This document shows positions 6,913 through 28,720 of a DNA stretch of 64,000 nucleotides, one piece after another (position 1 is the first letter of the stretch; each line of letters starts with the position of its first letter). The translations under genes were made by a program, and so were the position numbers. The DNA is taken from contig JAGZEG010000001.1 of assembly GCA_018368455.1 (NCBI GenBank), positions 199,276 to 263,275 of the forward strand, written 5' to 3'. This stretch comes from Coriobacteriia bacterium (GTDB taxonomy: Bacteria > Actinomycetota > Coriobacteriia > Coriobacteriales > UMGS124). Under the pieces are notes generated by a model that saw only the letters and a list, made by a program, of their open reading frames with translations, had not been told where the DNA came from and did not search any database.

Positions 6913-7938
6913 TCAGCGCTGGGCGCTTCGCCAGGCCGAGGGCGTCATGCCTGTTTTTGCGCGGAAGGCTTCGGTGAAGCTCCCCTGATTGCGGTAACCG
7001 ACGTTTTGGGCTACCTGTGCGATTGGGCAATCCGATGTTGCCAGGATCTCGCACGCCCTTTCTAGACGCAGGCGTCGCGTGTAACGCCCGATGCTCTCCC
7101 CCGTCTCTGCGTGGAAGGCCTCGCATAGATGCGTTCGACCTACGTAGAGCATCCGTGCGAGCTCGTCGAGAGAGATGGACTTGCTCAGGGACTTTTCAAT
7201 TGCCGAGCAGGCGCGTTCCACTAGCAGCCTTTGTTCGCGACTTCCGCGCCGTAGGCCGGCGCTCGAGGCCTGCGCTACGTGGTCGATCAAGATCGCAGCC
7301 ACTTCGAGAGCTGCGGCGCGAACCCGTAGCAGAGTGCCTGCGTCGTCTGCACGCGCGGCGTTGAGGTGGTGAAACGCTGCATCCAGATCTTGCGGCAAAC
7401 TTTCAGGGTCGAGTGCGCTCAGCCGCTCGGCAAGTAACGTGAAGCCCTCGTTGGCGTGTCGCGATCTTCTTTTCTGAGCGCACTGTAGAGCGCTGTCGAG
7501 GCTGTCGGTGATGAGGCCGTTTTCGAAAAAGTTCGGGAGAAAGCTGAGCGTGCACATGCTATAGCTCTGGTGAGCCTGCAGGTCGTAGCGCTCTAGCGCG
7601 CTGCCGCGAACAAAGGCGGCAAGGTTGCCTGTGGGAAGCATGTGACGGGAGTGGGCTCTTGGAGGCGTCTGCGCGATGGAGCTTGCCGTGCCACTGCATA
7701 TGCAAAGGCATGAACGCGGATATTCCACCATGCTTAGCGGGTTGTTGAGACGAACGTTGTTATATATCAGTAGGCAGTCGGGCCCTGCTGGAGCGGCCCA
7801 AACGCCTCCGCTGCAGAGGGGGCTGTCCGTGGCGATGACGCCGGAACGTACGGGTCGGGGCTCCATGCCGAGCTGCTCTACCTGCGGCTCGAACAACGTC
7901 AGCAGGCTCGTGTCTATATGTGCGTACGCGTGTGCCAT
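6913..7938 (-). CDS. AraC/XylS-family transcriptional regulator
   Basis: C-terminal double HTH: LDELARMLYVGRTHLCEAFHAETGESIGRYTRRLRLERACEILATSDCPIAQVAQNVGYRNQGSFTEAFRAKTGMTPSAWR. The N-terminal 220 aa or so are an unassigned sensor domain. Third-position GC looks lower than in neighbouring housekeeping genes. Confidence 0.85.
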   Translation of the reverse strand: MAHAYAHIDTSLLTLFEPQVEQLGMEPRPVRSGVIATDSPLCSGGVWAAPAGPDCLLIYNNVRLNNPLSMVEYPRSCLCICSGTASSIAQTPPRAHSRHMLPTGNLAAFVRGSALERYDLQAHQSYSMCTLSFLPNFFENGLITDSLDSALQCAQKRRSRHANEGFTLLAERLSALDPESLPQDLDAAFHHLNAARADDAGTLLRVRAAALEVAAILIDHVAQASSAGLRRGSREQRLLVERACSAIEKSLSKSISLDELARMLYVGRTHLCEAFHAETGESIGRYTRRLRLERACEILATSDCPIAQVAQNVGYRNQGSFTEAFRAKTGMTPSAWRSAQR

Positions 7939-8202: not shown

Positions 8203-8958
8203 ATGGAACTTACGCGCAGGTCGCTGCTCTCTCTTGCGATGCTTGGCGCTGCCTCGCTTGGCATGACGCCGCTGCTTGCCCACGCTAGCGAGAAGTCCTC
8301 GCAGGACGATGCCGCTACGTCCGAGGGGGCCGTCGTGGCCGCACCCGGCACTCCTGAGGCTGCCGGGCAGCTTATGGAGGCGCTCAATGGCACGTATGTT
8401 GAGCTGTTCCCCGTGCTTAACCAATTCCCGGAGTATTGGGAGGAAGTCGCGGCTTCTATTGTGGGCGAGGCGGATGCCAAAGAGACGGCCGAGATGCTGA
8501 TGGGCGCGTGTGCGGGCGAGATATATGGGCCCGATGCCGTTGAGGCGTATGAGGCTGACCCGGAGTCTGCTGTGTTTGATTGCTATTTCCCCGAGGGGAT
8601 AGAGAAACTGACGTTTGAGGACGGGGCGATTCGCGGCGTCGATTCAAACGGCAATGCCGTGTTCGAGCACGGCTACGAGTTCCTCTGTTACGCACCGTCG
8701 CTCGATTTCTGCGTGTTTCAAACGGGCGACGAGGACGCCGGCGAGTATCGGTACTTTGTGTCGCGCTCCGATACCACGCAGGGGACCTATCACCTCGAGT
8801 TTAGGTTTGGCAGCGATATTGACGCGCTCCTCGACTTGTATGCGGGGGCGTACGCCTATTGGATGCCGGCTGCCATTGACGAAAACTGGGACGAAGATCT
8901 TGCGAAGAAGGGTATCGAGCTTTTCGTGACCGAGAACCTGGCGCCAAGCGAGGAGTAG
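8203..8958 (+). CDS. Tat-signal secreted protein, ZinT/YodA-like lipocalin fold suspected (metal-binding His residues not conserved)
   Basis: ORF track 8146..8958. Start set at ATG 8203, 4 nt after GGAGGA (8193-8198). N-terminus MELTRRSLLSLAMLGAASLGMTPLLAHA. By-eye similarity to E. coli ZinT (recalled sequence): IEKLTFEDG vs IEMIGIEDG, and YRYFVSRSD...YHLEFRFG vs KYIQFSDH...HFHIFMG. Confidence 0.6.
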   Translation: MELTRRSLLSLAMLGAASLGMTPLLAHASEKSSQDDAATSEGAVVAAPGTPEAAGQLMEALNGTYVELFPVLNQFPEYWEEVAASIVGEADAKETAEMLMGACAGEIYGPDAVEAYEADPESAVFDCYFPEGIEKLTFEDGAIRGVDSNGNAVFEHGYEFLCYAPSLDFCVFQTGDEDAGEYRYFVSRSDTTQGTYHLEFRFGSDIDALLDLYAGAYAYWMPAAIDENWDEDLAKKGIELFVTENLAPSEE

Positions 8959-12849: not shown

Positions 12850-14313
12850 CTAAGCGCCGGTAGGCACAACGCGCGCGTGGAGCAGTCGCGTACGAGGGTC
12901 GTACGACTCGATGCAGGCGCGGACAAGGCCGGGCGTGACGGGTTCGACCATGCCCTGTGGGGCCTCGACGACGGCGCGATGGTAACTGGCCGTCGTACCA
13001 CGGGCAGAGCCGTCTGCGGCGATGCGTTCGACGAGAACGGGCTCGACCGTACCCACGCGTGCTGCGGCGTCTGTGGCGCGCAGCTCATCGGCCAAGGTGC
13101 GCAGGCGTTCGGAGCGGACCTGCGCCACGCGGGGATCCACCTGGTTGGGCATGGACGCGGCCGGCGTGTCGGGCCGTGCTGAGAAGCGAAAGACGTGCAT
13201 CTTCGAAAAGCGCATCTCGCGGCAGAACGCGAGCGTCTGCTCGAACTCCTCGTCCGTCTCGCCGGGGAACCCGACGATGACGTCCGTCGACAGCGAGAGC
13301 TCGGGCAGCTCGCTGCGTACCATCTCGACAACGTCGGCGAAGGTCTTCGTGTCGTAGGCGCGTCCCATGCGCGCGAGCGTCGCGTCGCAGCCGGACTGCA
13401 GCGGCAGGTGCAGGTGGGGACAGACGACGCCGCGCAGCTCCGCCATGGCGTGCGCGAGCTCGGGCGTCACGTCGGGCGGCTCGATGCTCGAGGCGCGCAC
13501 GATGGCGCGCTCCCTCGCCAGGTCGGACACCCTGCGCAACAGGCCGTCGAGGGCGATGGGCGCCCCGTCGGGGGCGGTGTCCCGATAGCGGCCCAGGTTG
13601 ATGCCCGAGAGCACGACCTCGCCGGCGCCTTCGGCTAGCACGGTGCCCACCTGGCGCTCGACTTCGGGAAGCGGCGACGAGCGCACCGGGCCGCGGGCGC
13701 GCCACACGATGCAATACGTGCAGCGGTTGTCACAGCCGTCCTGCACCTTGACGCCGCGGCGTAGGCGCGTCTCGTAAGTCGATGCCTCGTGGCCGTGGGA
13801 GACGGCGGGGGTGGTTGGCGCCGCGGCGACCGAGACGCTCTCTGTGGGATTGGCGGCCGCTGTGCTATCAGGCGCGAGGCAGCCGTGTTCCGCGCTTTCT
13901 GCACCGACACGCGCCTGCTCGTCAAACAGCCGCAGCGCCTCGCGAGCCACGTTTGCCTTGTCAGCGACGACGTGCACGCGCTCGCCCAGGGCGCGCGCCT
14001 CTTCGGGGAACAGGTTGGCGACGCATCCCGTCACGCACACGAGCGGGCGCTGGGGCAGGCTCACCGCGTGTCGGATGGCCTTGCGCGTCTTGGCCTCGGC
14101 CTCGCCCGTGACGGCGCACGTGTTGATCACGACAATGTCGGCGCTTCCCTCCCCTGCCGGTTCGCAGCCGAGCTCAGAGAGGGAGCGTTCCATCCAGTCG
14201 CTTTCGATGCGGTTGACCTTGCAGCCAAGGTTGACGACGCACGCCTTCACGCGGCGGGTGCTCACGGCAGACCGCGCTCTCGCTACGACAGTGCGTCGCG
14301 CAGGCGCTGCCAC
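12850..14313 (-). CDS. mtaB: Radical-SAM methylthiotransferase, MtaB-like (tRNA t6A37 methylthiolation)
   Basis: N-terminal UPF0004 cysteines ([24 protein letters not shown]). Radical SAM motif [18 protein letters not shown]-like C-terminus. Start uncertain: the ORF start overlaps the dnaJ 3' end by 31 nt, and GTG 14265 is an alternative. Confidence 0.85.
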
Positions 14314-15428
14314 GGCTTGCGGCTTGGCTTGCAGCCGTCTTTGCCGTCGAGCTGCTCGGCCAGCTCCTTCATGAGCTTACGCTGGTACTCCGTCAGCTTC
14401 TTCGGCACGACGACGTCGACGTGGGCCAGCAAGTCGCCGCGGCCCGAGCGGCCGACGCGCGGCATGCCCATGCCCTTGACGCGCACGACGTCGTCAAACT
14501 GGCAGCCGGCTGGGATGTCGACCGTGACCGTCTCGTCGGGCAGGATGCCCTCGACCTCGAGCGTCGTTCCCAGCGTCGCTTGCGTGATGGACGCCTCGAC
14601 GCGCATGTGCAAGTCATCCCCGTCGCGCTGGAAGTTCTTGTCGCCTGAGACCGCCACGGTGACGATGAGGTCGCCCGTGTGGGCGCCGCGCACGCCAGCC
14701 TCGCCTGCGCCGGAGATGCGCACCTGCTGGCCGTCGCGAATGCCGGCGGGAACCTCGACGCTCACGCGCTCGCGGTCAGGTGCGCGACCCTCGCCGTCAC
14801 AGTCGGGGCAGGGCTTGTCGATTTTCTGGCCTGTGCCGTTGCAGTCCGGGCACACGGAGCGCGTCTGCATCTGGCCGAGGAACGTGCGCTGCGTCGTGAC
14901 GACCTGGCCGGTGCCGTGGCACGTGGGGCACGTCACGTTCTTGCTGCCCTCGGCGCAGCCCGACCCCTCGCACGTCTTGCACGGGGCCATGCGGTTGTAG
15001 GCGATCTCCTTCGTGCAGCCCGTCGCGGCCTCCTGCAGCGTGATGCGCACGGTCGCACCCATGTCTCGGCCGTCCATGCGCACGGCGCGCCCGCCCGCCC
15101 CGCCGGCTGAGCCGGAGAAGAACGAGCTGAACAGATCGCTCATGTCAAAGCCGCCGAAAATGTCGCCGATGTCCGGGCCGCCCTGGCCATAGCCGTCGAC
15201 GCTCCCGTAGCGATCGTAGTACTCGCGCTTTTGCGGATCGGACAGCACGGCGTACGCCTCGTTGACCTCCTTGAAGCGCTCCTCGGCGTCGGGGGCCTTG
15301 TTGATGTCGGGGTGTAGCGTGCGCGCCTTCTGGCGGAACGCCTTCTGGATGTCGGACTCGCTTGCGTTGCGGTCGAGGCCGAGAATGGCGTAGTAGTCCT
15401 TAGGGGATGCGGAACCGGGCATGGCCAA
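14283..15428 (-). CDS. dnaJ: Molecular chaperone DnaJ (canonical type I)
   Basis: J domain with HPD (TLHPDINK), a G/F region, four CxxCxGxG repeats and a complete C-terminal domain (…[30 protein letters not shown]…). Confidence 0.93.
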
Positions 15429-15631: not shown

Positions 15632-16732
15632 CTAGATGAAGAGGCGCGAGCACGACATGAGCGGCATGAGCAAAATGAACATGAACAGGCCGATGACGAG
15701 GCCGAAGCCGATGCGTCGTGCCGCGCGGTTCCAGAAGCTGCCGCCCTTCTTGCGCCCACCCATCGGGAACATGAAGAAGATGAAGAACAGCGGCAGGGCG
15801 AAGAACGAGAGCAGGCGCAGGATGGTCCCGGCGAACAGCGAGCACAGAACGAGGGCGAGAACGACGCCGAGCACCGTGAATCCAAACTCCTGGGAGCTTG
15901 TGAGGTGCTCGGAGGGAACGGTGAGCTCCGCCTCGAGATCCCCCTGCGCGCCGCCGCAGCGACCGGCGTCGCCGGCGCCCTTGACGCGCAGCACGGCGCC
16001 GTCGTGCGAGCCGGCGGGGATGTGGATGGCGACTGTAGCGCGGCGCAGACGAGTGCCCGAGCCGGAGCACTCGGGGCACAGGTCCTTGATGACCTTGCCG
16101 CTGCCGTTGCACTCGGGGCAGCGCATCGTCTGCTGCACGTCACCCATGAACGTCGTGAGGCGCGCGTTGACGGATCCCTTGCCGTGGCACGTCGGGCACG
16201 TGACGATGCCGTCGGAGGACTGGGTGCCCCGGCCCCCGCAGCTCGTGCACGCCTCGAAGCGCTCGAACGAGATCGTCTTCGTGGTGCCGTGTCGTGCCTC
16301 GTCCGCCTCGAGCGTCAATGAGATGCGACGGGATCCGCCGGGTTCGGTGGAGAAGGGCGCCGTGTTTGAGCGGCGCCGGCTTGCGGAGGCCTGGCCTGCA
16401 GCGCCGGCAAACGGGCCCCAGAACGGACCAAACGGGTCGAACGGCATGCCACCGAAGGGGGAGCCGCCCGTGGAGCCTCCAGCGCCGCCCGCGTAGGGAT
16501 TCTGCGTCGTGAAGCCCCCGGCGCGAATGACGTCGTAGCGCTGGCGCTTACCCGGGTCGGACAGCGTCTCGTACGCCTCAGAGAGCTCCTTGAAGCGCTC
16601 CTCGGCGTCGGGAGCCTTGTTGACGTCGGGGTGCATCGTCGCGGCCTTCTTGCGGAAGGCCTTCTTGATGTCGTCTGTGGAGGCGTCTTTGGGGACGCCG
16701 AGGATGTCGTAGAAGTCTTTGGTGTCTGCCAC
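15632..16732 (-). CDS. DnaJ-like protein: J domain + G/F + zinc finger + partial CTD-I, with a C-terminal three-helix membrane anchor
   Basis: GTG start 16730-16732. (M)ADTKDFYDILGVPKDASTDDIKKAFRKKAATMHPDVNK. Zinc-finger repeats CTSCGGRG, CPTCHGKG, CPECNGSG, CPECSGSG. The C-terminal 90 aa contain FGFTVLGVVLALVLCSLFAGTIL, LLSFFALPLFFIFFMFPMG and IGFGLVIGLFMFILLMPLM. Confidence 0.85.
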   Translation of the reverse strand: MADTKDFYDILGVPKDASTDDIKKAFRKKAATMHPDVNKAPDAEERFKELSEAYETLSDPGKRQRYDVIRAGGFTTQNPYAGGAGGSTGGSPFGGMPFDPFGPFWGPFAGAAGQASASRRRSNTAPFSTEPGGSRRISLTLEADEARHGTTKTISFERFEACTSCGGRGTQSSDGIVTCPTCHGKGSVNARLTTFMGDVQQTMRCPECNGSGKVIKDLCPECSGSGTRLRRATVAIHIPAGSHDGAVLRVKGAGDAGRCGGAQGDLEAELTVPSEHLTSSQEFGFTVLGVVLALVLCSLFAGTILRLLSFFALPLFFIFFMFPMGGRKKGGSFWNRAARRIGFGLVIGLFMFILLMPLMSCSRLFI

Positions 16733-17499: not shown

Positions 17500-19182
17500 A
17501 TGGAGCAAACCAATCTCACGCGTCGTTCGTTCGTTGCCGGTGTTGCTGGTTCTACTGGTGTTGTGCTTGCCTCTATGGCGGCGCACGATGCTTTGGCGGC
17601 AGGGGCAGCTTCCGATCCCAACGGCCAGGCGCCGACGGGCGAGCTGCCCTGGCTCGGTGCCGAGCCTGAGATCTCCGATGCCGATGTCGAGCAGGAAGTT
17701 AGTGTTGATGTGGTTGTCATCGGATGCGGACTGGCAGGCACGCTTGCTGTGCGTTCGGCCGCAGAAGAGGGCGCGACGGTAGCGGCGTTCGAGAAGGGCG
17801 ATGGCGTTCAGGCTCGAAGCGGCGAGTACGCCATTGTTGGTGGTACCCTCGCCGGGCGATGGGGACGCGAGGAGTTCGACATCGATATGCTCGTCGAGCA
17901 CGAGATGGACGAGTGCTCCTACTTCCCGAAGCGCACGATCTGGCGAAAGTACTTCGAACATGGCGCCGAGGTGTTTGACTGGTATATCGGGGCGAAGGAA
18001 GACATCGTCATCCTCGACACGTCTGACCAAGAGGCACCGGCTGACGCCGAGGCTGTCGTGCGCCCATTCTTTGTGCCAATGATCAACGACTACGATTGGA
18101 CGACCGAGCAGCATCCCTGTTTCCCGAGTTCGCTCATCATTGAGCCGAGCCACGTGCCGGTCATTCAGGCAAACATGAACAAAGCCATCGAGGCAGGTGC
18201 CCAGACGTTCTACGGTCACTTCGTCGAGAAACTTATCATGGAGGACGGCCGCTGCACGGGCTGCTATGCGCGCAATGCCGAGACGGGAAAGTACGTCAAG
18301 GCAACGGCGTCCAAGGGCGTCATTCTGGCTACGGGAGACTACGGCAGCAATCCTGACATCATCCAATACTACTGCCCCGAGGTCATTGCCAATGGCATCA
18401 CGGAACTCTGGATGAACCAGGACGTCGAGGGCAATCCGACGAACACGGGTGACGGCCTAAAGCTCGGTGCGTGGGCAGGTGCGGCAATCCAGCAGCATCA
18501 CGCGCCGATGATCCACCATATGGGCAACACGCCTGACGGTGCTCAGGGCCCGCTTGGCATCGATCCCTACCTGCGCCTCAACAAGGCTGGCCAGCGCTTC
18601 ATGAACGAGGACTGCCCCGGGCAGCAGACTGAGAATCAGATGGAGAATCAGCAGGACCACACTGCCTATATGATCTGGGATGCCAACTGGCAGGAACAAA
18701 TCAAGAGCTTCCCTGCTGCCCACGGCCTGAAGTACGACGCCACGCAGGAGACGATCGATGCGGCCGTCGAGGCGGGCCAGGTTTATAAGGCCGACACACT
18801 TGAGGAGCTGTTTGGCCTTGTTGACATTGATGCCGAAGCGGCGCTCGCTTCGGTTGAGCGCTACAACGAGCTTGCAGCGAAGGGCAAGGACGAAGACTTT
18901 GGCAAGAAGGCGTCACGTCTGTTTGCTCTGGACACGCCGCCCTACTACATTCAGCCGATGGGCCTTTCCCCGATGCTCGTGTGCATAGGCGGCCTGGAGA
19001 GCGACGAGGAGTGCCACGTGTACAGCTCCGATCGTACGGTCATTCCTGGCCTGTATGCGTGCGGTAACATCCAGGGTAACCGCTTTGCCGTGCAATATCC
19101 TATTGGCTTCAAGGGCGTGAGTCACGGTCTCTGCATGTACTACGGGTACGTCGCAGGAAAGAACGCAGTGGCACAGAAGTAG
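17500..19182 (+). CDS. Tat-exported FAD-dependent reductase (flavocytochrome c / fumarate reductase superfamily), no FMN_bind domain
   Basis: MEQTNLTRRSFVAGVAGSTGVVLA (Tat signal). VDVVVIGCGLAGTLAVRSAAEEGA (FAD fold). VIPGLYACGNIQG near the C-terminus. RBS AAAGGGGGA. Many A/T-ending codons compared with neighbouring genes. Confidence 0.85.
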   Translation: MEQTNLTRRSFVAGVAGSTGVVLASMAAHDALAAGAASDPNGQAPTGELPWLGAEPEISDADVEQEVSVDVVVIGCGLAGTLAVRSAAEEGATVAAFEKGDGVQARSGEYAIVGGTLAGRWGREEFDIDMLVEHEMDECSYFPKRTIWRKYFEHGAEVFDWYIGAKEDIVILDTSDQEAPADAEAVVRPFFVPMINDYDWTTEQHPCFPSSLIIEPSHVPVIQANMNKAIEAGAQTFYGHFVEKLIMEDGRCTGCYARNAETGKYVKATASKGVILATGDYGSNPDIIQYYCPEVIANGITELWMNQDVEGNPTNTGDGLKLGAWAGAAIQQHHAPMIHHMGNTPDGAQGPLGIDPYLRLNKAGQRFMNEDCPGQQTENQMENQQDHTAYMIWDANWQEQIKSFPAAHGLKYDATQETIDAAVEAGQVYKADTLEELFGLVDIDAEAALASVERYNELAAKGKDEDFGKKASRLFALDTPPYYIQPMGLSPMLVCIGGLESDEECHVYSSDRTVIPGLYACGNIQGNRFAVQYPIGFKGVSHGLCMYYGYVAGKNAVAQK

Positions 19183-23994: not shown

Positions 23995-24167
23995 GACGGC
24001 CCGCCGCCGCGCACGGAGCGCGATGGCGGGCCGCAAGAACAACAAGGCGGCACGGGCGGCCGGGCCTTATGGCATCGCGGGCGTGTGGGTGTCCGCCTCC
24101 TTCTGGCCTGTGCGGACCATCTTGTAGGCATAGTGGCCTGCGACCTTCCGACTGCCGGGGCTCATGC

Positions 24168-25109
24168 CTATTGTGGTTGACAGCCGTTCTGGGCCGCGCC
24201 GTCGTTCGTGCCTCGGGAGGCCCGTGCTACCGGGCGCGATGGCTCTCTCAGGCGTTGCCCGAGCCACGATGCGAAGCTTGCCGCGGTGCTGTCGCGAGGC
24301 ACCCCCTCGCGCGTCACGAGATAGAGAGGGACGTCGAGGGAGTCTCGCTCCACGAGCGGGACAACGGCTAGGCCCGGGGTGACGGCAATCATAGGATGGC
24401 CGCGCGGCACGAACGCCACCCCCTCGCCACCCTGCGCCGCCTGAAAGTAGAATCGCATCGGAACGGTGCGAAACGTGGGCGAGAAGCCGTAGGGCACGCA
24501 TCGCTGGCGTATAAGCTCCACCGTGTACTCCCGGTCGGGCGGCGTGAGCAGCGTGACGTTGCGCAGGTCGTCGAACGAGAGCTCGCCGAGGGACGCCAGG
24601 GGACTGTCCCCTGCGAGCACCGCGACGGTCTCGCCGCGCCGCACGAGCTGGCCGTCGAGGCCGGGCATCTGCGGGGGGCCGGGCACGAACGCCACGTCTG
24701 CCTGCCCGTCTGCGACGAGCGACAGGCAGCGCGCCCGCGACCCCTCGACCATCCCGGCGCGCACGTCGGGGCATGCGCGCTCGAAGTCGGAGAAGTCCAC
24801 GTCCGTGAGGCTGTCCGTCGTCGCGGCGAGCGTGACGCTGGCCACGCCTGCCCCCATGCGCCGTATCTGCCCGGGCAGCGCGTCGACCTCGCGCAGGATG
24901 AGCGTTCCCCGGTCGGCGAGCAGCCGGCCCTGCGGCGTGGGGGCCACTCCCCTGCTGCCGCGTTCGAGGAGCCTGCAGCCGAGCTCCTCCTCGAGCTTGC
25001 GCACGGCGCTCGAGATGGTCTGCTCCGTCACGTACAGCGCGCTGGCGGCGGCCGTGACGTTTCCCGTCTCGCACGTCTTGCAAAAGTATCGCAGCTGCCG
25101 CAACTCCAT
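24168..25109 (-). CDS. LysR-family transcriptional regulator
   Basis: MELRQLRYFCKTCETGNVTAAASALYVTEQTISSAVRKLEEELGCRLLERGSRGVAPTPQG is the canonical LysR wHTH. It is the 3' third of the spurious 932 aa track ORF. Transcribed divergently from the flavoprotein gene. Confidence 0.9.
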   Translation of the reverse strand: MELRQLRYFCKTCETGNVTAAASALYVTEQTISSAVRKLEEELGCRLLERGSRGVAPTPQGRLLADRGTLILREVDALPGQIRRMGAGVASVTLAATTDSLTDVDFSDFERACPDVRAGMVEGSRARCLSLVADGQADVAFVPGPPQMPGLDGQLVRRGETVAVLAGDSPLASLGELSFDDLRNVTLLTPPDREYTVELIRQRCVPYGFSPTFRTVPMRFYFQAAQGGEGVAFVPRGHPMIAVTPGLAVVPLVERDSLDVPLYLVTREGVPRDSTAASFASWLGQRLREPSRPVARASRGTNDGAAQNGCQPQ

Positions 25110-25140
25110 GATTCCCCCAGCCATCGGCGCCATGGCACAA

Positions 25141-25161
25141 ATTATAGCTGTCCTCGCCCTA
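25141..25161 (-). promoter_or_regulatory. Candidate lysR promoter -10 (TATAAT) overlapping a T-N11-A type dyad
   Basis: Minus strand TATAAT = 25141-25146, 31 nt upstream of the LysR ATG. Plus strand TAG-N11-CTA at 25145-25161. Confidence 0.35.
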
Positions 25162-25262
25162 GAGACGTTTGTTTCACTTGCGGCCGGGCGCCCTCCAAAA
25201 TCATGTCCGGGGCTCGCCCACATGGGTGTGCCCGCCACTGGCCTTGTATTGAGGAGGATGTC

Positions 25263-26876
25263 ATGGGAATCATCGAAGCGAACGTCACGCGCAGGCAAGC
25301 GGTTGGCGCGGCGGGCGTCGCATGCGCCGCCGCAGTTCTCGGGTCGGGCGTCGCGCACGCCGCCGAGCCGGCCGCCCCCGCCGCCGCCGATGCCGTGGAG
25401 ACCTGCGACGTCGTGGTCGTCGGCCTCGGCGCCTCGGGCATGCTGGCCGCGATCGGCGCCGCCGACGCCGGCGCGAGCGTCATCGCGCTCGACGCGGCAG
25501 CCGGCTTCACGTCCACCACGAACACGAAGACGACGGGCTCCTTCTTCGTCGAGGGATCCGCGCAGCTCGCCGAGCCGTGGCACCTCACGAAGCAGGACGC
25601 CTACGACTACATGATGGAGGGCACGCACTACTCGGAGAATAGCCCGCTCGTCCGCAACATGATTGAGGTGAGCGGTCGCGCCGTCGACCTCATGGAGGAT
25701 GGCGGCGTCGTGTTCACGCACCAGTTCGAGGGCGCCACGGCCGACTCCCCCGTCGCCACGTCCACGGGCTACACGTTCATGACGCAGCCTGACGAGCGCG
25801 CCGCCCAGTTCGAGGCGCTCCTCGCCGCCCACCCGGGCATCACGGCGAAGTGGGGCTGCACGGTGAAGTCCGCCGTCGTCGAGGACGGCCGCGTCTGCGG
25901 CGTCACGTATGTGGACGCGGGCGGCAAGACCGTGCGCGTCGACGCCGGCGCCGTCATCAGCTGCGGCGGCGGCTTCATCGCCAACGACGAGATGAAGCAC
26001 AAGTACTACGGCGGCTCCACGTTCGTGAGCATGGGCTTCCCCACGGTGAACGGTTCGGGCATCCAGATGTGCATGGACGCGGGCGCCCAGATCGGCAAGA
26101 ACTTCACCGTGTCGGTGAACGAGATGGGCGGCTGCAGCTTCAACGCCACGCCCCAGTTCTCCTGGATCCCGGGCACGGGCACGAACCAGGCCATGTACCT
26201 GTTCCTGCTCGGCGGCCTGCTCGTGAACCGCGCCGGCGAGCGCTTCGTGCGCGAGAGCCGCCTCGTCACGAACATGATGTTCACGGGCGAGCCGCTCGTG
26301 CGCGAGGGCGTCTACTACGTCATCATGGACCAGGCCACGATCGACAAGGTCTCGTCCGAGCCCCTGCTGCAGCTGTTCGACGAGGTCGGCGTCAAGGGCC
26401 TGGCGCCCATCCTGACCATGGGCTTCCAGGGCTTCACGTGCGACGCTCTGGCCGACGACCTCGCCACGGCACAGGACGAGGGCTGGGCGTTCAAGGCCGA
26501 TTCCGTCGAGGAGCTCGCCGAGCACTTCGGCCTGACCAACCTGGCGCAGACGGTGGAGAGCTACAACGCCATCCCGGACGAGGGCGACGGCTTCCTGTTC
26601 CTGGAGCCCGAGTACGTGCGCACCGTCGAGGAGGGCCCGTTCTACGCCATCCAGTACAACCCGGGCTCCTGGTGCACCATCGGCGGCATCCGCACGGACG
26701 CCCACTGCCGCGCCCTGAACGCCGAGGGCGAGCCCGTAAGCGGCCTGTACGTGGCCGGCATGGACGCGGACCTCTGGAGCGTGCCGTACTACCAGGCCGG
26801 TACCGCCCAAGGCTTCAGTTATGCCTCGGGTCTGCTGGCAGGCGAGACGGCCGCGGTGGACGTGCTCGGCGCGTAG
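25263..26876 (+). CDS. Tat-exported FAD-dependent reductase (flavocytochrome c / fumarate reductase superfamily)
   Basis: Start ATG 25263 after GAGGAGG. MGIIEANVTRRQAVGAAGVACAAAVLGSGVAHA (Tat signal). CDVVVVGLGASGMLAAIGAADAGA (FAD fold). VSGLYVAGMDAD near the C-terminus. Confidence 0.85.
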   Translation: MGIIEANVTRRQAVGAAGVACAAAVLGSGVAHAAEPAAPAAADAVETCDVVVVGLGASGMLAAIGAADAGASVIALDAAAGFTSTTNTKTTGSFFVEGSAQLAEPWHLTKQDAYDYMMEGTHYSENSPLVRNMIEVSGRAVDLMEDGGVVFTHQFEGATADSPVATSTGYTFMTQPDERAAQFEALLAAHPGITAKWGCTVKSAVVEDGRVCGVTYVDAGGKTVRVDAGAVISCGGGFIANDEMKHKYYGGSTFVSMGFPTVNGSGIQMCMDAGAQIGKNFTVSVNEMGGCSFNATPQFSWIPGTGTNQAMYLFLLGGLLVNRAGERFVRESRLVTNMMFTGEPLVREGVYYVIMDQATIDKVSSEPLLQLFDEVGVKGLAPILTMGFQGFTCDALADDLATAQDEGWAFKADSVEELAEHFGLTNLAQTVESYNAIPDEGDGFLFLEPEYVRTVEEGPFYAIQYNPGSWCTIGGIRTDAHCRALNAEGEPVSGLYVAGMDADLWSVPYYQAGTAQGFSYASGLLAGETAAVDVLGA

Positions 26877-26971
26877 GAAGGGCGTCTCGGGGGTCTCGTC
26901 CCGTGCGCATGAAGAAGGGCCGTCGCTTCCGCCCGTCCTGCACGTGATAATCGCATCTCGTCCCACGCACC

Positions 26972-27015
26972 AAAACTAAAGGGCCTGACCCCGGTTGGCT
27001 TCCGGGTTCAGGCCC
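26972..27015 (-). terminator. Terminator of the rubrerythrin gene (possibly bidirectional)
   Basis: GGGCCTGAACCCGG-aagccaa-CCGGGGTCAGGCCC (one mismatch), followed on the minus strand by UUUAGUUUUGG. Lies between convergent genes. Confidence 0.65.
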
Positions 27016-27113
27016 TCAAGGAGACCGCTTGGGACGCCCTCATTTCAACGCTCAAGTTTTGGGCGCAGTTCAAGACAGTAACGGGGCGGCATGCCCTGGT
27101 AAGTGCCTGTAGC

Positions 27114-27830
27114 TTAGTAGGCCTGGAAGGCGCTCTTCGGGGCGCCGCAGATGGGGCAGGTCTCGAAGTCGTCGCCCTTATGGATGTAGCCGCAGATGGG
27201 GCACAGGTAGAACTTGTCCTCATCGGGGTTGTCGATGTAGTTGTAGGCCTGGAGGTACAGGGCGGCGTGATAACCCTCGGCGAGCTTGGCGCGCGTGAAC
27301 ACGTTCACGGCGTCGTCCTTGCCCTCCTCGACAGCCTTCGCGATGAACGCGGGATACATGTCGGAGGTCTCGTAGATCTCGCCGTTGGCGCCGGAGATCA
27401 GGTTAAGGTCCGTCGGGGCCTCGGCGGGGGCGTCAGCCGTCGGACGCTCGAAGTCGGGCTCCTCGGCCGTGATCAGGCCATACTCGAGCTCGATGTGGAT
27501 CTTCTCGGCGTCAGAGGTGCAGGTGAACAGGCGGGCGATCTGGCTGTAGCCGGCCTCCTCGGCAACCTTGGCGAAAGCGGCGTACTTCGTCGTCGCGCCC
27601 GTCTCGCCGGTGATGGCCGTCTTGAGGTTCTCGAGCGTCGTGCCGACCTTCGTCGTGGACTCGGCGACGACGTTGAAGTTGGTGGCGGTGTCATACGTGG
27701 GCAGAGCGGCCGGGGCGGACGCGGCCTTGGCGTCCTTGCCCTCACTGGCGAAGGCTGCGGCGGGCACGGCCAGGCCGGCGGCGGCAGCAACTGCGGCCTT
27801 CACAAAGCTCCTGCGATTGAGCTGATCCAT
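27114..27830 (-). CDS. Rubrerythrin with twin-arginine signal peptide
   Basis: MDQLNRRSFVKAAVAAAAGLAVPAAAFA (Tat signal). Diiron ligand motifs: E...AEKIH and E...AEGYH. C-terminal rubredoxin-like CPICGYIHKGDDFETCPICG. Confidence 0.9.
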   Translation of the reverse strand: MDQLNRRSFVKAAVAAAAGLAVPAAAFASEGKDAKAASAPAALPTYDTATNFNVVAESTTKVGTTLENLKTAITGETGATTKYAAFAKVAEEAGYSQIARLFTCTSDAEKIHIELEYGLITAEEPDFERPTADAPAEAPTDLNLISGANGEIYETSDMYPAFIAKAVEEGKDDAVNVFTRAKLAEGYHAALYLQAYNYIDNPDEDKFYLCPICGYIHKGDDFETCPICGAPKSAFQAY

Positions 27831-27919
27831 GCTTGTTCCCTTTCGTCTCCTCGGGGCCGCCCCTGCGGTCCCGCTCCCCGCATGCGCTGGACTATCCCTT
27901 GCTCTCGCATGCTAGGCGT

Positions 27920-27948
27920 AAGATAGCACTATTAGGAATCAATCTCAA
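27920..27948 (-). promoter_or_regulatory. Candidate promoter of the rubrerythrin gene
   Basis: Minus strand TTGAGA (27943-27948), 17 nt spacer, then TGcTATCTT (-10 at 27920-25). ATTAGG is repeated twice, 11 nt apart, over the -35 region. Confidence 0.45.
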
Positions 27949-28272
27949 TTAGGTAGCGTAGGTAAACTATTCTCGTCACGTCGCGAGCACAAACCTGGGA
28001 AGCCTTTATGGATGAAGTCATCTACAGGATGCATTTCGCTGACTTAGCGCCATTGAACAGGCAAAACATCTCGCTGCTATCTACAAATCCTTAGTCTTAA
28101 GTCTACCGTTCAATGTATATCTCTATTGTTTGAGTTGAGTGTTAGACATTGGCCAAAACTGCGTAGCGCTGGACCCTAAGTGCCCTTTGAGCCCCCTTTG
28201 AGGGGTGGATATGCGGGATAATTGCGCAGAGTTATTGGCGGATTCTGTGGGTCTTCCCAGCAGGTTGTGACG

Positions 28273-28281
28273 TGCTACAAT
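28273..28281 (+). promoter_or_regulatory. Candidate extended -10 promoter of rpsT (TGcTACAAT)
   Basis: cgTGcTACAATgc, about 66 nt upstream of the rpsT GTG. Confidence 0.45.
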
Positions 28282-28346
28282 GCTAAGGCTTATGTGCGCG
28301 GGCATTGGCCTGCGATGTTTTGAGAGATACGAAGGGAACAACTTCA

Positions 28347-28613
28347 GTGGCGAACATCAAGTCTCAGATGAAGCGCATCAAGACGAACGAGAAGGCTCGT
28401 ATGCGCAACAAGGCCGTCCGTTCTGAGCTCAAGACGGCTGTCAAGAAGGTCGAGGCTGCCGTGCAGGCTGGCGACGTCGCTGCCGCCGACGCTGCCGTCC
28501 AGCATGCCTACAAGCTTCTCGACAAGGCTGTGGCCAAGGGCGTTATCCACAAGAACCAGGCTGCCAATCGCAAGTCGGGTGTGCGCAAGCTCGCCAACAA
28601 GGTTGCCGCGTAA
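28347..28613 (+). CDS. rpsT: 30S ribosomal protein S20
   Basis: (V)[38 protein letters not shown]...[23 protein letters not shown] is canonical S20. GTG 28347 after GAAGGGAA. Confidence 0.93.
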
Positions 28614-28641
28614 GGCTTCCCTTTCTTTTGTATGTGCGCAG

Positions 28642-28680
28642 CGGGCGTTCGATCTTCGGATCGGGCGCCCGTTTTCTTTT
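28642..28680 (+). terminator. Intrinsic terminator of rpsT
   Basis: CGGGCGUUCGAUC-UUCG-GAUCGGGCGCCCG (13 bp stem including 2 G:U pairs, UUCG loop), followed by UUUUCUUUU. Confidence 0.85.
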
Positions 28681-28720
28681 GCACGTGTGAGCGACGGCGA
28701 GACGGCTGAGAGGCGTAGCA

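What the first reader, a model, noticed from the sequence alone, without database searches (positions are those of the whole stretch)
27114..27948. Rubrerythrin carrying a textbook twin-arginine export signal
The 238 aa protein starts MDQLNRRSFVKAAVAAAAGLAVPAAAFASEG, which has the RRSFVK Tat consensus, a hydrophobic h-region and an AxA-like cleavage site.

It continues with a complete rubrerythrin: both diiron E...ExxH pairs (AEKIH, AEGYH) and the C-terminal rubredoxin-like CPICG-x12-CPICG centre.

The rubrerythrins characterised so far, to my knowledge, are cytoplasmic NAD(P)H/rubredoxin-dependent peroxidases. An exported, pre-folded metal-loaded rubrerythrin would need an extracytoplasmic electron donor.

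The gene is convergent with a Tat-exported flavoprotein (25263-26876), which offers one speculative partner. It has its own candidate promoter (TTGAGA-17-TGcTATCTT) overlapped by a twice-repeated ATTAGG motif, and an 83 nt leader.
Basis: partly seen in the sequence, partly recalled or inferred. Interest (0 to 1): 0.55.

Follow-up and report, generated by a model that had tools for sequence, protein, structure and literature searches.

The report
Tat-exported nigerythrin-type rubrerythrin
A gut-type Coriobacteriia bacterium encodes an iron-containing hydrogen-peroxide-detoxifying enzyme (a nigerythrin-type rubrerythrin, so far studied only inside cells) with a conserved export signal, so it most likely works on the outer face of the cell membrane.

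Summary
Window 27114-27830 (-) encodes a 238-aa protein. Residues 41-238 are about 69% identical to Desulfovibrio vulgaris nigerythrin, with all seven diiron ligands and four Cys. Residues 1-28 form a canonical Tat signal (NRRSFVK, Ala-rich h-region, AFA|S).

The start codon question is settled by comparison. ATG1 has a Shine-Dalgarno sequence in six diverged loci. The Arg-Arg pair is invariant in 24 homologues, down to 33% identity, and is encoded by different synonymous codons. dN/dS of the signal is 0.09, the same as the core.

The window protein belongs to a small SPase-I-type clade. A larger sister group in cultured Eggerthellaceae (Gordonibacter, Paraeggerthella, Eggerthella sinensis, Raoultibacter, Hugonella) carries the same RR signal plus a lipobox. 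Five genomes hold both an exported and a cytoplasmic copy.

The flavoprotein-partner idea is not supported: synteny is not conserved, and the gene looks monocistronic.

By my heuristic, 80 of the 150 nearest 50%-identity cluster representatives also carry Sec, lipoprotein or Tat signals. I found no paper describing an exported rubrerythrin.

Verdict: a real, conserved, undescribed localisation variant of a known enzyme. Export, activity and electron donor are inferred, not shown. Interest is moderate.

The parts
27114..27830 (-). Complete CDS, 238 aa plus stop: Tat-signal nigerythrin
   Evidence: ORF list and sequence. NCBIfam nigerythrin NF045783 scores 345 bits against a cut-off of 340. PDB 1yux E=2e-85 over residues 41-238.
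27747..27830 (-). Signal peptide, codons 1-28. n-region MDQLNRRSFVK, h-region AAVAAAAGLAVPAAA, c-region A-F-A with predicted SPase I cleavage after A28.
   Evidence: TIGR01409 scores 16.7 bits, equal to its cut-off. Pfam PF10518 scores 21.0 against 22.7. dN/dS is 0.09 against the 89%-identical orthologue. AF2 pLDDT is below 50 for residues 1-5 and 13-40.
27810..27815 (-). Twin-arginine codons (R6 R7; CGC AGG)
   Evidence: Invariant in all 24 aligned long forms. Encoded by different synonymous codon pairs in six loci: CGC AGG, CGC AGA, AGA AGG, AGG CGA.
27696..27746 (-). Variable linker between the cleavage site and the conserved nigerythrin N-terminus (codons 29-45)
   Evidence: Length and sequence vary in A1. 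dN/dS is 0.64. Low pLDDT.
27240..27650 (-). Four-helix-bundle diiron domain (residues about 61-197) with ligands E76, E109, H112, E151, E154, E185, H188
   Evidence: Pfam PF02915 covers residues 67-195. Ligands are conserved in Tat and cytoplasmic forms. Helices 65-92, 96-123, 140-168 and 172-197 have pLDDT above 95. Foldseek hit 1yuz: TM 0.95, rmsd 1.2 A.
27117..27212 (-). C-terminal rubredoxin-like Fe(Cys)4 domain (residues 207-238; C210, C213, C225, C228)
   Evidence: Pfam PF21349 covers residues 209-235. The cysteines are conserved in 24 of the 26 Tat forms; the other two have a gap at these columns.
27836..27852 (-). Shine-Dalgarno region GAGGAGAcgAAAGGGAA, ending 5 nt before the ATG
   Evidence: Identical in L001/L002. 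An SD-like purine run precedes ATG1 in all six loci compared.
27920..27953 (-). Candidate sigma-70-type promoter: -35 TTGAGA 27943-27948, 17-nt spacer with TG, -10 TATCTT 27920-27925. It is overlapped by two CCTAAT repeats (27948-27953, 27931-27936).
   Evidence: Promoter scan. The 29-nt block CTAATTGAGATTRATTCCTRATAGTGCTA is the best-conserved upstream stretch against L001-L003. CCTAAT counts. Function not shown.
26970..26992 (-). Terminator-like hairpin GGGGTCAGGCCCT followed by a T-rich tail, about 120 nt after the stop codon
   Evidence: Terminator scan. Weak evidence: 2 found against 1.2 expected.

Best explanation
The gene encodes a nigerythrin-type rubrerythrin, a diiron plus Fe(Cys)4 hydrogen-peroxide reductase. 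The proposed mechanism is as follows.

1. The enzyme folds and takes up its iron in the cytoplasm.
2. The twin-arginine (Tat) pathway carries it across the membrane.
3. In this lineage, signal peptidase I releases it after A-F-A28. In the sister lineage in Eggerthellaceae it is lipid-anchored at a lipobox cysteine.
4. It works on the extracytoplasmic face of this monoderm anaerobe.
5. There it reduces H2O2 (possibly also O2) next to the organism's many Tat-exported respiratory flavoprotein reductases. Relatives of these (Cgr2) are oxygen-sensitive.
6. Electrons come from the extracytoplasmic branch of the respiratory chain, either a quinol-linked cytochrome of the Cgr1 type or a flavinylated EET protein. 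They do not come from cytoplasmic rubredoxin or NAD(P)H.

Shown here: the gene, the domain and ligand integrity, the signal-peptide anatomy and its conservation, and the co-existence of exported and cytoplasmic paralogues.

Inferred: export, cleavage, peroxidase activity outside the cell, and above all the electron donor.
For: Enzyme identity:
- 69% identity to D. vulgaris nigerythrin and a match to the fold (TM 0.95, rmsd 1.2 A).
- The score is above the NCBIfam nigerythrin equivalog cut-off.
- All 7 diiron ligands and 4 Cys are present and conserved in Tat forms.

Signal:
- NRRSFVK, then a 17-residue uncharged h-region, then AFA|S.
- TIGR01409 scores at its cut-off. 14 of 24 long forms hit TIGR01409 and 9 hit the formate-dehydrogenase TAT model.

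Start codon:
- ATG1 with an SD is conserved in 6 loci.
- Codon 10 is GTG/GTG/GTT/GTC/ATG/CTC, so there is no conserved alternative start.
- The RR pair is kept through synonymous codon changes.
- dN/dS is 0.09 in the signal, 0.64 in the linker and 0.09 in the core.

Clade:
- R6 and R7 are invariant in 24 homologues, down to 33% identity.
- 26 species-level loci carry RR plus lipobox and 1 carries RR plus AxA. The species include Gordonibacter pamelaeae, Paraeggerthella hongkongensis, Eggerthella sinensis and Hugonella massiliensis.
- 5 genomes hold both a Tat form and a 202-aa signal-less paralogue.

Host context:
- Five other proteins in the 64-kb window carry the same style of RR signal, three of them FAD_binding_2 reductases.
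- Eggerthellaceae are known for large arsenals of signal-peptide-bearing respiratory reductases (bioRxiv 10.1101/2022.12.26.521950).
- E. lenta Cgr2 is a predicted Tat-secreted flavoprotein of the same Pfam family, with a [4Fe-4S] cluster. It is proposed to be fed by the cytochrome Cgr1 (PMC5953540).
Against: - There is no experimental evidence of export, and no dedicated predictor (SignalP/TatP) could be run.
- The Pfam TAT_signal score (21.0) is below its gathering threshold (22.7).
- No Tat machinery gene was identified in the window.
- No candidate electron donor is encoded nearby in any of 34 loci.
- A GTG with an AGGAG 4 nt upstream exists at codon 10 in this genome and its closest relative.
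- All biochemically characterised rubrerythrins and nigerythrin are cytoplasmic (own knowledge).
- In a monoderm cell an SPase-I-cleaved protein could simply be lost to the medium.
Confidence: 0.7

Rival explanations
1. The protein is exported or membrane-anchored, but not through Tat. Either translation starts at GTG codon 10, giving MKAAVAAAAGLAVPAAAFA, a Sec-type signal. Or the RR signal is used by Sec, or it stays uncleaved as an N-terminal membrane anchor. The enzyme would then fold and acquire iron outside the cell.
For: GTG10 is preceded by AGGAG 4 nt upstream, and some gene callers used it (229-aa cluster members). Many more distant rubrerythrin-family representatives carry plain Sec or Sec-lipoprotein signals and still keep the CxxC...CxxC domain (44 of 48 single-domain-size proteins). 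So Sec export of this fold appears to be possible.
Against: Codon 10 is not a start codon in 3 of 6 loci, while ATG1 plus SD is conserved in all six. The RR pair is invariant over 24 sequences despite synonymous codon turnover. Codons 1-9 show dN 0.12 against dS 1.5. The Ala-rich, weakly hydrophobic h-region is typical of Tat signals rather than Sec signals (own knowledge).
Confidence: 0.1
2. The protein is exported by Tat, but its job outside is not peroxide scavenging. It could be an extracytoplasmic ferroxidase or iron-handling protein, analogous to the Tat-exported EfeB/YwbN of the EfeUOB iron-uptake system. Or it could be a terminal O2/H2O2 reductase whose main role is energy conservation.
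For: Rubrerythrin has ferroxidase activity in vitro (own knowledge). Two Tat-SPI loci have Peripla_BP_2 iron-siderophore-type binding proteins within a few kb (L005, L006). One residue next to ligand E109 distinguishes the forms: D107 in all 20 close exported forms compared, against A or E in the cytoplasmic ones. This could reflect a change at the active site or in the partner.
Against: The iron-transport neighbours are not conserved. All ligands are identical to those of nigerythrin, which has peroxidase activity (own knowledge). No EfeU/EfeO-like genes lie next to it in any locus examined.
Confidence: 0.12
3. The N-terminal extension is a vestigial or non-export RR peptide, for example a chaperone-binding remnant like the one on E. 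coli NarG. The enzyme would remain cytoplasmic, like all characterised rubrerythrins.
For: The Pfam TAT_signal score is sub-threshold. No donor is known outside the cell. The closest characterised protein is cytoplasmic.
Against: The full tripartite signal, with an AxA site, is under purifying selection. The sister clade couples the same RR n-region to a lipobox cysteine in 26 species loci, which only makes sense after translocation. Five genomes already have a separate signal-less paralogue for the cytoplasm.
Confidence: 0.05

Closest known systems
Nigerythrin of Desulfovibrio vulgaris Hildenborough (PDB 1YUX/1YUZ/1YV1; NCBIfam NF045783)
   Same: About 69% identity over residues 41-238. Same four-helix diiron domain plus C-terminal Fe(Cys)4 domain, same ligands, and the same nigerythrin-specific N-terminal stretch (xPTxxNxxNFN). 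The model superposes at TM 0.95 and rmsd 1.2 A.
   Different: The D. vulgaris protein is 202 aa and has no signal peptide. The window protein has a 28-residue Tat signal plus a variable linker of about 17 residues. It also has D107, where cytoplasmic forms have A or E.
Classical rubrerythrin (D. vulgaris Rbr 1RYT/1LKM, P. furiosus 1NNQ; NCBIfam NF045767)
   Same: Same superfamily, domain order and metal ligands. Peroxidase chemistry presumed the same.
   Different: Only about 32-34% identity. The score of 106 is below the 200-bit equivalog cut-off. Classical Rbr is cytoplasmic and rubredoxin/NAD(P)H-linked (own knowledge).
TAT-SOR class of superoxide reductases (SORGOdb)
   Same: An anaerobe-type non-haem-iron ROS-detoxifying enzyme, otherwise regarded as cytoplasmic, that in a few genomes carries a predicted twin-arginine signal (PMC3116461).
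   Different: Unrelated fold and reaction (superoxide to H2O2). Seven proteins were reported, in Desulfovibrio, Desulfuromonas and Geobacter (diderms), not in Coriobacteriia.
Extracytoplasmic peroxidases of other types: Tat-exported DyP peroxidase EfeB/YwbN of Bacillus subtilis, and the periplasmic cytochrome c peroxidase Ccp of E. coli, which supports H2O2 respiration (own knowledge)
   Same: Cofactor-loaded peroxidases placed outside the cytoplasmic membrane. YwbN is a Tat substrate in a monoderm. Ccp draws electrons from the quinol pool, the kind of donor arrangement proposed here.
   Different: They are haem enzymes with unrelated folds. No rubrerythrin has been shown to act this way.
Tat-secreted flavoprotein reductases of Eggerthellaceae (e.g. 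E. lenta Cgr2 with cytochrome Cgr1)
   Same: Same host group, same style of RR signal, and a metal-cofactor-bearing passenger. Three such FAD_binding_2 proteins lie in this window.
   Different: Different enzyme family and substrates. Cgr2 has a dedicated adjacent electron-donor gene, while the nigerythrin gene has none.

Membership tests
Nigerythrin (NCBIfam NF045783 equivalog) | Whole-protein HMM score at or above the curated cut-off (340 bits) | tested here: met
   345.0 bits, residues 40-238 on profile positions 4-202 of 202. The margin is narrow.
Nigerythrin (NCBIfam NF045783 equivalog) | Seven diiron ligands (5 Glu, 2 His in E...ExxH x2 plus ExxE) and a C-terminal CxxC...CxxC Fe(Cys)4 site | tested here: met
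   E76, E109, H112, E151, E154, E185, H188 and C210, C213, C225, C228 are present and conserved in relatives.
Nigerythrin (NCBIfam NF045783 equivalog) | Fold: four-helix bundle plus rubredoxin-like domain, superposable on 1YUX/1YUZ | tested here: met
   AF2 pLDDT is above 95 for residues 61-238. Foldseek hit 1yuz_B: E=1.6e-21, TM(target) 0.95, rmsd 1.2 A over 198 columns.
Nigerythrin (NCBIfam NF045783 equivalog) | H2O2 reductase (peroxidase) activity | not testable with these tools
   Needs purified protein.
Classical rubrerythrin (NCBIfam NF045767 equivalog) | HMM score at or above 200 bits | tested here: not met
   106.4 bits. It is a rubrerythrin-family protein (Pfam PF02915 79.9 bits against 22.8), but not the classical Rbr equivalog.
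Tat (twin-arginine) signal peptide | Consensus S/T-R-R-x-F-L-K in the n-region, within about the first 35 residues | tested here: met
   N5-R-R-S-F-V-K11. The RR pair is invariant in 24 homologues.
Tat (twin-arginine) signal peptide | Uncharged, moderately hydrophobic h-region of at least 12-13 residues, followed by a c-region with an AxA or lipobox site | tested here: met
   A12-A28 is uncharged, followed by A26-F-A28|S29. Sister-clade proteins have L-[AL]-[AG]-C lipoboxes at the same place.
Tat (twin-arginine) signal peptide | Profile-HMM recognition (TIGR01409, Pfam PF10518) | tested here: inconclusive
   TIGR01409 scores 16.7 bits, exactly at its cut-off. PF10518 scores 21.0 bits, below its 22.7 cut-off. 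14 of 24 clade members hit TIGR01409 at E<=0.05.
Tat (twin-arginine) signal peptide | The signal is translated: the true start lies upstream of the RR | tested here: met
   ATG1 plus SD is conserved in 6 loci, and the alternative codon 10 is not conserved. There is synonymous turnover of the RR codons. dN/dS is 0.09.
Tat (twin-arginine) signal peptide | A Tat translocase (TatA/TatC) is present in the genome | not tested
   No tat gene was identified in the 64-kb window, and the rest of the genome is not available here. Indirect support: five further RR-signal proteins in the window, and Tat prediction for E. lenta Cgr2.
Tat (twin-arginine) signal peptide | Tat-dependent translocation shown experimentally (RR to KK, tat mutant) | not testable with these tools
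   Experiment needed.

The most novel reading that the evidence does not exclude
Extracytoplasmic rubrerythrins are a large, overlooked class, and within the nigerythrin family export may be the ancestral state.

By my heuristic, 80 of the 150 nearest 50%-identity cluster representatives carry Sec, lipoprotein or Tat signals. Most of them keep the Fe(Cys)4 domain. Some are giant secreted proteins with 3-8 tandem rubrerythrin domains.

In an NJ tree the window's Tat clade groups with the cytoplasmic nigerythrins in 72% of bootstraps. The close Tat forms as a whole are monophyletic in only 6.5%. Deeper branches are again exported forms.

On this reading the textbook cytoplasmic D. vulgaris nigerythrin would be a secondarily internalised enzyme. 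The exported forms would be terminal H2O2 (or O2) reductases wired to the respiratory chain. That would give Gram-positive gut anaerobes peroxide respiration, and protection of their extracellular reductase arsenal, with an as yet unknown donor.
Probability: 0.25. Interest if true: 0.75.

Novelty: new variant of a known kind. Interest (0 to 1): 0.5.

Why it matters
All mechanistic work on rubrerythrins assumes a cytoplasmic enzyme fed by rubredoxin or NAD(P)H. A conserved exported form moves peroxide reduction to the cell surface. That raises a concrete, testable question: what feeds electrons to a rubredoxin-like Fe(Cys)4 domain outside the membrane?

The hosts are Eggerthellaceae and related Coriobacteriia, which metabolise drugs and polyphenols in the gut. 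They depend on dozens of exported flavin, molybdopterin and Fe-S reductases, and E. lenta Cgr2 is an oxygen-sensitive example.

An extracellular H2O2 reductase could explain how these enzymes survive micro-oxic episodes near the mucosa. If it is linked to the quinone pool, H2O2 would become a respiratory electron acceptor.

Cultured carriers such as Gordonibacter pamelaeae and Paraeggerthella hongkongensis make the idea directly testable. The co-existence of exported and cytoplasmic paralogues in one genome offers a natural comparison.

Tried and rejected
1. Dedicated electron-donor partner. I compared the neighbourhoods of the window, L001-L007 and 27 more Tat-type loci by all-against-all BLASTP clustering. 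The only recurrent neighbours are lineage synteny (LytTR regulator, PGI, HypF, a phosphatase). There is no cytochrome, rubredoxin, flavodoxin or FMN-binding protein. The convergent flavoprotein idea is rejected as a specific partner.

2. Structured RNA in the 83-nt leader. The Rfam E-value scan of 26800-28700 gave nothing near any gathering score.

3. Downstream start codon GTG10. Considered because of the AGGAG 4 nt upstream and the 229-aa database calls. Rejected on comparative grounds.

4. Literature. Six full-text searches were aimed at an exported or Tat-signal rubrerythrin: rubrerythrin with twin-arginine, Tat signal, signal peptide or periplasm; exact phrases such as 'periplasmic rubrerythrin' or 'secreted rubrerythrin'; rubrerythrin with Eggerthellaceae names; and rubrerythrin with flavinylation. 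A seventh search supplied the Eggerthella reductase context. None of the six turned up a description of an exported rubrerythrin. The main rubrerythrin phylogeny paper never uses the words signal, periplasm, secretion or export. The original nigerythrin gene paper (PMC179298) is not held.

5. Taxonomy of the Sec-type exported rubrerythrin representatives. The cluster look-up returned no organism names.

6. The window's own species is not among the GTDB species representatives: the best locus there is 63% identical. The only name available is 'MAG: Coriobacteriia bacterium'.

7. A first bootstrap run timed out. It was redone with a numpy distance routine.

8. The conserved promoter block was searched in all loci. 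It is present only in the closest relative.
Full report
**What is at the locus**

Window 27114-27830 on the minus strand is an open reading frame of 238 codons.

Pfam finds a Rubrerythrin diiron domain (residues 67-195, 79.9 bits) and the rubredoxin-like RUBY_RBDX domain (209-235, 37.5 bits). NCBIfam places the protein in the nigerythrin equivalog: NF045783 scores 345 bits against a cut-off of 340, over residues 40-238. The classical rubrerythrin model stays far below threshold, at 106 against 200.

The best solved structure is Desulfovibrio vulgaris nigerythrin (1YUX/1YUZ), at E=2e-85 and aligned without gaps over residues 41-238. An AlphaFold2 model built on 24 homologues has pLDDT above 95 from residue 61 to the end. 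It superposes on 1YUZ with TM 0.95 and rmsd 1.2 A at 69% identity. Residues 1-5 and 13-40 have pLDDT below 50.

The seven diiron ligands (E76, E109, H112, E151, E154, E185, H188) and the four cysteines (C210, C213, C225, C228) are all present.

- The two CPICG motifs are 10 residues apart, not 12.
- The protein is a nigerythrin rather than a classical rubrerythrin.

**The N-terminal extension**

Relative to the 202-aa D. vulgaris protein, the window protein has about 36 extra N-terminal residues. Their anatomy is M-D-Q-L-N-R-R-S-F-V-K, then 17 uncharged Ala-rich residues, then A-F-A | S-E-G.

TIGR01409 (the TAT signal model) scores 16.7 bits, exactly its cut-off. Pfam PF10518 scores 21.0 against 22.7, just below. 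Taken alone, the profile evidence is borderline. No SignalP or TatP was available.

**Is the signal translated?**

Such a codon exists. GTG at codon 10 has an AGGAG 4 nt upstream, formed by the Arg codons CGC AGG AGC. Two members of the protein's 90% cluster are 229 aa long, which matches calls from that GTG.

I compared six loci spanning 57-89% protein identity: the window, L001, L005, L006, L004 and L007.
- ATG1 is present in all six and is preceded at 5-9 nt by a purine-rich Shine-Dalgarno sequence.
- Codon 10 is GTG, GTG, GTT, GTC, ATG and CTC, so it is not a conserved start.
- The Arg-Arg pair is written CGC AGG, CGC AGG, CGC AGA, AGA AGG, AGG CGA and AGA AGG. The amino acids are kept while the codons drift.

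Against the 89%-identical orthologue, codons 1-28 have dN/dS = 0.084/0.90, about 0.09. That equals the catalytic core (0.036/0.416). The linker, codons 29-45, has 0.64. The counts are small, but the pattern is the one expected for a selected signal peptide, a free linker and a selected domain.

**The clade**

Among the 120 best 90%-identity clusters, 101 are 202-207 aa with no extension. The other 19 are 234-281 aa, and every one of these carries an RR motif.

An alignment of 24 long forms (A1) reaches down to 33% identity with the window protein. R6 and R7 are invariant in it, while the rest of the signal varies. Of the 24 members, 14 hit TIGR01409 and 9 hit the formate-dehydrogenase TAT model.

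There are two processing types:
- The window's group (P0001-P0009, P0011) ends its signal in AxA.
- A larger group ends in L-L-A-[AG]-C, a lipobox. These are predicted Tat-dependent lipoproteins.

A lipobox is only meaningful after translocation. This is the strongest comparative argument that the RR peptide is a working export signal.

A scan of one genome per GTDB species returned 80 best loci.
- At least 27 are Tat forms: 26 with a lipobox and 1 with AxA.
- Carriers include cultured Gordonibacter pamelaeae, G. faecis, Gordonibacter spp. 28C and Marseille-P2775, Paraeggerthella hongkongensis and P. hominis, Eggerthella sinensis, Enteroscipio rubneri and Hugonella massiliensis, plus Raoultibacter MAGs.
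- Three more loci are probably Tat forms, but were hidden by over-extended ORFs.
- Five genomes hold both a Tat form and a 202-aa signal-less paralogue.
- The signal-less forms occur in Eggerthellaceae and Desulfovibrionaceae.

The window's own species is not among the representatives. The only name attached to an identical protein cluster is 'MAG: Coriobacteriia bacterium'.

**Evolution**

In an NJ tree with 200 bootstraps:
- The window's Tat-SPI clade groups with the cytoplasmic nigerythrins in 72% of replicates.
- The cytoplasmic forms are monophyletic in 69%.
- All close Tat forms together are monophyletic in only 6.5%.
- Deeper branches are again Tat or Sec forms.

So the signal was either lost once, on the way to the cytoplasmic nigerythrins, or gained more than once. 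The method is crude and the support is moderate, so I treat this as a lead.

One column separates all 20 close exported forms compared (D107, two residues before ligand E109) from the cytoplasmic forms (A or E).

**Genomic context**

The gene lies between rpsT (28305-28613, +) and a convergent FAD_binding_2 flavoprotein with its own RR signal (25263-26876, +). A divergent LysR regulator sits at 24168-25109 (-), and lepA follows.

A sigma-70-like site, TTGAGA-17-TATCTT with a TG extension (27948-27920), is picked up by the scan: 2 sites against 0.3 expected. It lies in the best-conserved upstream block shared with the closest relative. The CCTAAT hexamer occurs three times in the 64 kb, and two of those are in this promoter. 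A weak terminator-like hairpin follows the stop codon. No Rfam family matches the leader. The unit looks monocistronic.

In the 89%-identical relative the gene sits in the same lepA-rpsT interval, but with different neighbours: another flavoprotein upstream on the same strand, a LuxR-type regulator, and two Oxidored_molyb proteins. In other relatives it lies in unrelated contexts.

Clustering all neighbours of 34 Tat-type loci gave only lineage synteny and no redox partner. The flavoprotein-partner speculation is therefore not supported.

**Host physiology**

The 64-kb window contains five further proteins with the same style of RR signal:
- three FAD_binding_2 reductases, one of which has a C-terminal FMN_bind domain;
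- an SBP_bac_5 solute-binding protein;
- a 251-aa protein with no family match.

This fits the description of Eggerthellaceae as carrying tens to more than a hundred signal-peptide-bearing respiratory reductases (bioRxiv 10.1101/2022.12.26.521950). It also fits E. lenta Cgr2, a flavoprotein with a [4Fe-4S] cluster that is predicted to be Tat-secreted. Cgr2 is thought to be fed by the membrane cytochrome Cgr1 (PMC5953540).

**Mechanism proposed**

1. The enzyme folds and binds iron in the cytoplasm (inferred from Tat logic).
2. Tat exports it (inferred from the signal and its conservation).
3. It is cleaved after AFA28, or lipidated in the sister clade (inferred).
4. It reduces H2O2 at the outer face of the membrane (inferred from ligand identity with nigerythrin).
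5. Its electrons come from the extracytoplasmic respiratory chain (speculative; no candidate was identified).

The rationale is that exposed flavoenzymes can make H2O2 when O2 intrudes, and the neighbouring Fe-S and molybdopterin enzymes are labile. A surface peroxidase would protect them. If linked to quinol, it would also turn H2O2 into an electron acceptor, as Ccp does in E. coli (own knowledge).

**How unusual is it?**

A search of 1.84 billion 50%-identity representatives gave 2712 hits. Among the 150 best, my heuristic (n-region charge, h-region hydrophobicity, RR motif or lipobox) calls signal peptides on 80:
- 53 Sec-like;
- 13 Sec-lipoprotein;
- 14 Tat-like.

Of the 61 single-domain-size proteins among these, 53 keep the C-terminal CxxC...CxxC. 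There are also secreted giants with 3-8 tandem rubrerythrin domains.

This heuristic is mine and uncalibrated, and it covers only the nearest relatives of the query. Still, it shows that signal-bearing rubrerythrin-family proteins are common in sequence space.

In the literature library I found no paper that describes one. The phrases 'periplasmic/secreted/exported/extracellular rubrerythrin' do not occur at all, and the main rubrerythrin phylogeny paper never mentions signals or export. The nearest precedent is the predicted 'TAT-SOR' class of superoxide reductases (PMC3116461).

**Verdict**

The feature is real and conserved. It is best described as a localisation variant of a known enzyme family: a Tat-exported nigerythrin. 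The sequences themselves are in public databases as 'rubrerythrin family protein'. The export signal and its implications appear not to have been discussed.

My confidence that the protein is exported is about 0.85. My confidence in the whole statement, including peroxide reduction outside the cell, is about 0.7. The donor is unknown. Interest is moderate (0.5): surprising to a rubrerythrin specialist and directly testable in cultured relatives, but purely predictive and not rare in sequence space.

Noticed in passing
window 2687-4249(-), 4540-6528(-), 8203-8958(+), 17500-19182(+), 25263-26876(+): Five further proteins in the 64-kb window carry the same style of twin-arginine signal (x-[LI]-[ST]-R-R-[SG]-F-[VI]). 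They are an SBP_bac_5 solute-binding protein, three FAD_binding_2 flavoprotein reductases (one with a C-terminal FMN_bind domain) and a 251-aa protein. Two of the reductase genes have an adjacent regulator: an AraC-type ORF at 6913-7938(-) (assigned by eye from its C-terminal sequence, not scanned) and a LysR at 24168-25109(-). This matches the reductase-arsenal pattern described for Eggerthellaceae.
   Followed up: partly
window 8203-8958 (+): A 251-aa protein with a clear RR signal (MELTRRSLLSLAMLGAASLGMTPLLAHA|SE) has no match in Pfam or NCBIfam. It is an exported protein of unknown family.
   Followed up: partly
proteins P0136-P0145, P0151, P0157 (50% cluster representatives): Giant predicted secreted proteins of 700-1957 aa carry 3-8 tandem rubrerythrin domains behind Sec-type signal peptides. 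P0136, for example, has 8 matched stretches. I know of no description of such arrays.
   Followed up: no
window 24046-28304 compared with L001 3358-13829: The interval between lepA and rpsT is a variable slot. The window holds LysR, a flavoprotein and nigerythrin. The 89%-identical relative holds an AAA-ATPase/PDDEXK gene, a different flavoprotein, nigerythrin, a LuxR-type regulator and two Oxidored_molyb (sulfite-oxidase-family) proteins, one with a faint MtrC-like segment.
   Followed up: partly
window 27801-27815 (-), codons 6-10: The Arg codons CGC AGG AGC create an AGGAG 4 nt upstream of an in-frame GTG (codon 10). Two database members of the same protein cluster are 229 aa, consistent with calls from that GTG. 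It could in principle give a minor RR-less isoform in this lineage, but it is not conserved in other loci.
   Followed up: yes
residue D107 of the protein (window 27510-27512, -): This is the only alignment column that cleanly separates the exported forms (Asp in all 20 close exported forms compared) from the cytoplasmic nigerythrins (Ala or Glu). It lies two residues before diiron ligand E109.
   Followed up: no
window 14283-15428 (-) and 15632-16732 (-): Two tandem DnaJ-like genes. The second ends in a long hydrophobic C-terminal tail (…FGLVIGLFMFILLMPLMSC), suggesting a membrane-anchored J-protein.
   Followed up: no
L004 9085-9798, L007 6939-7652 and 10 further Tat-lipoprotein loci: A LytTR-type response regulator gene is convergent with the Tat-lipoprotein nigerythrin gene in 12 loci. 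This is probably lineage synteny, but it is the most recurrent neighbour.
   Followed up: partly
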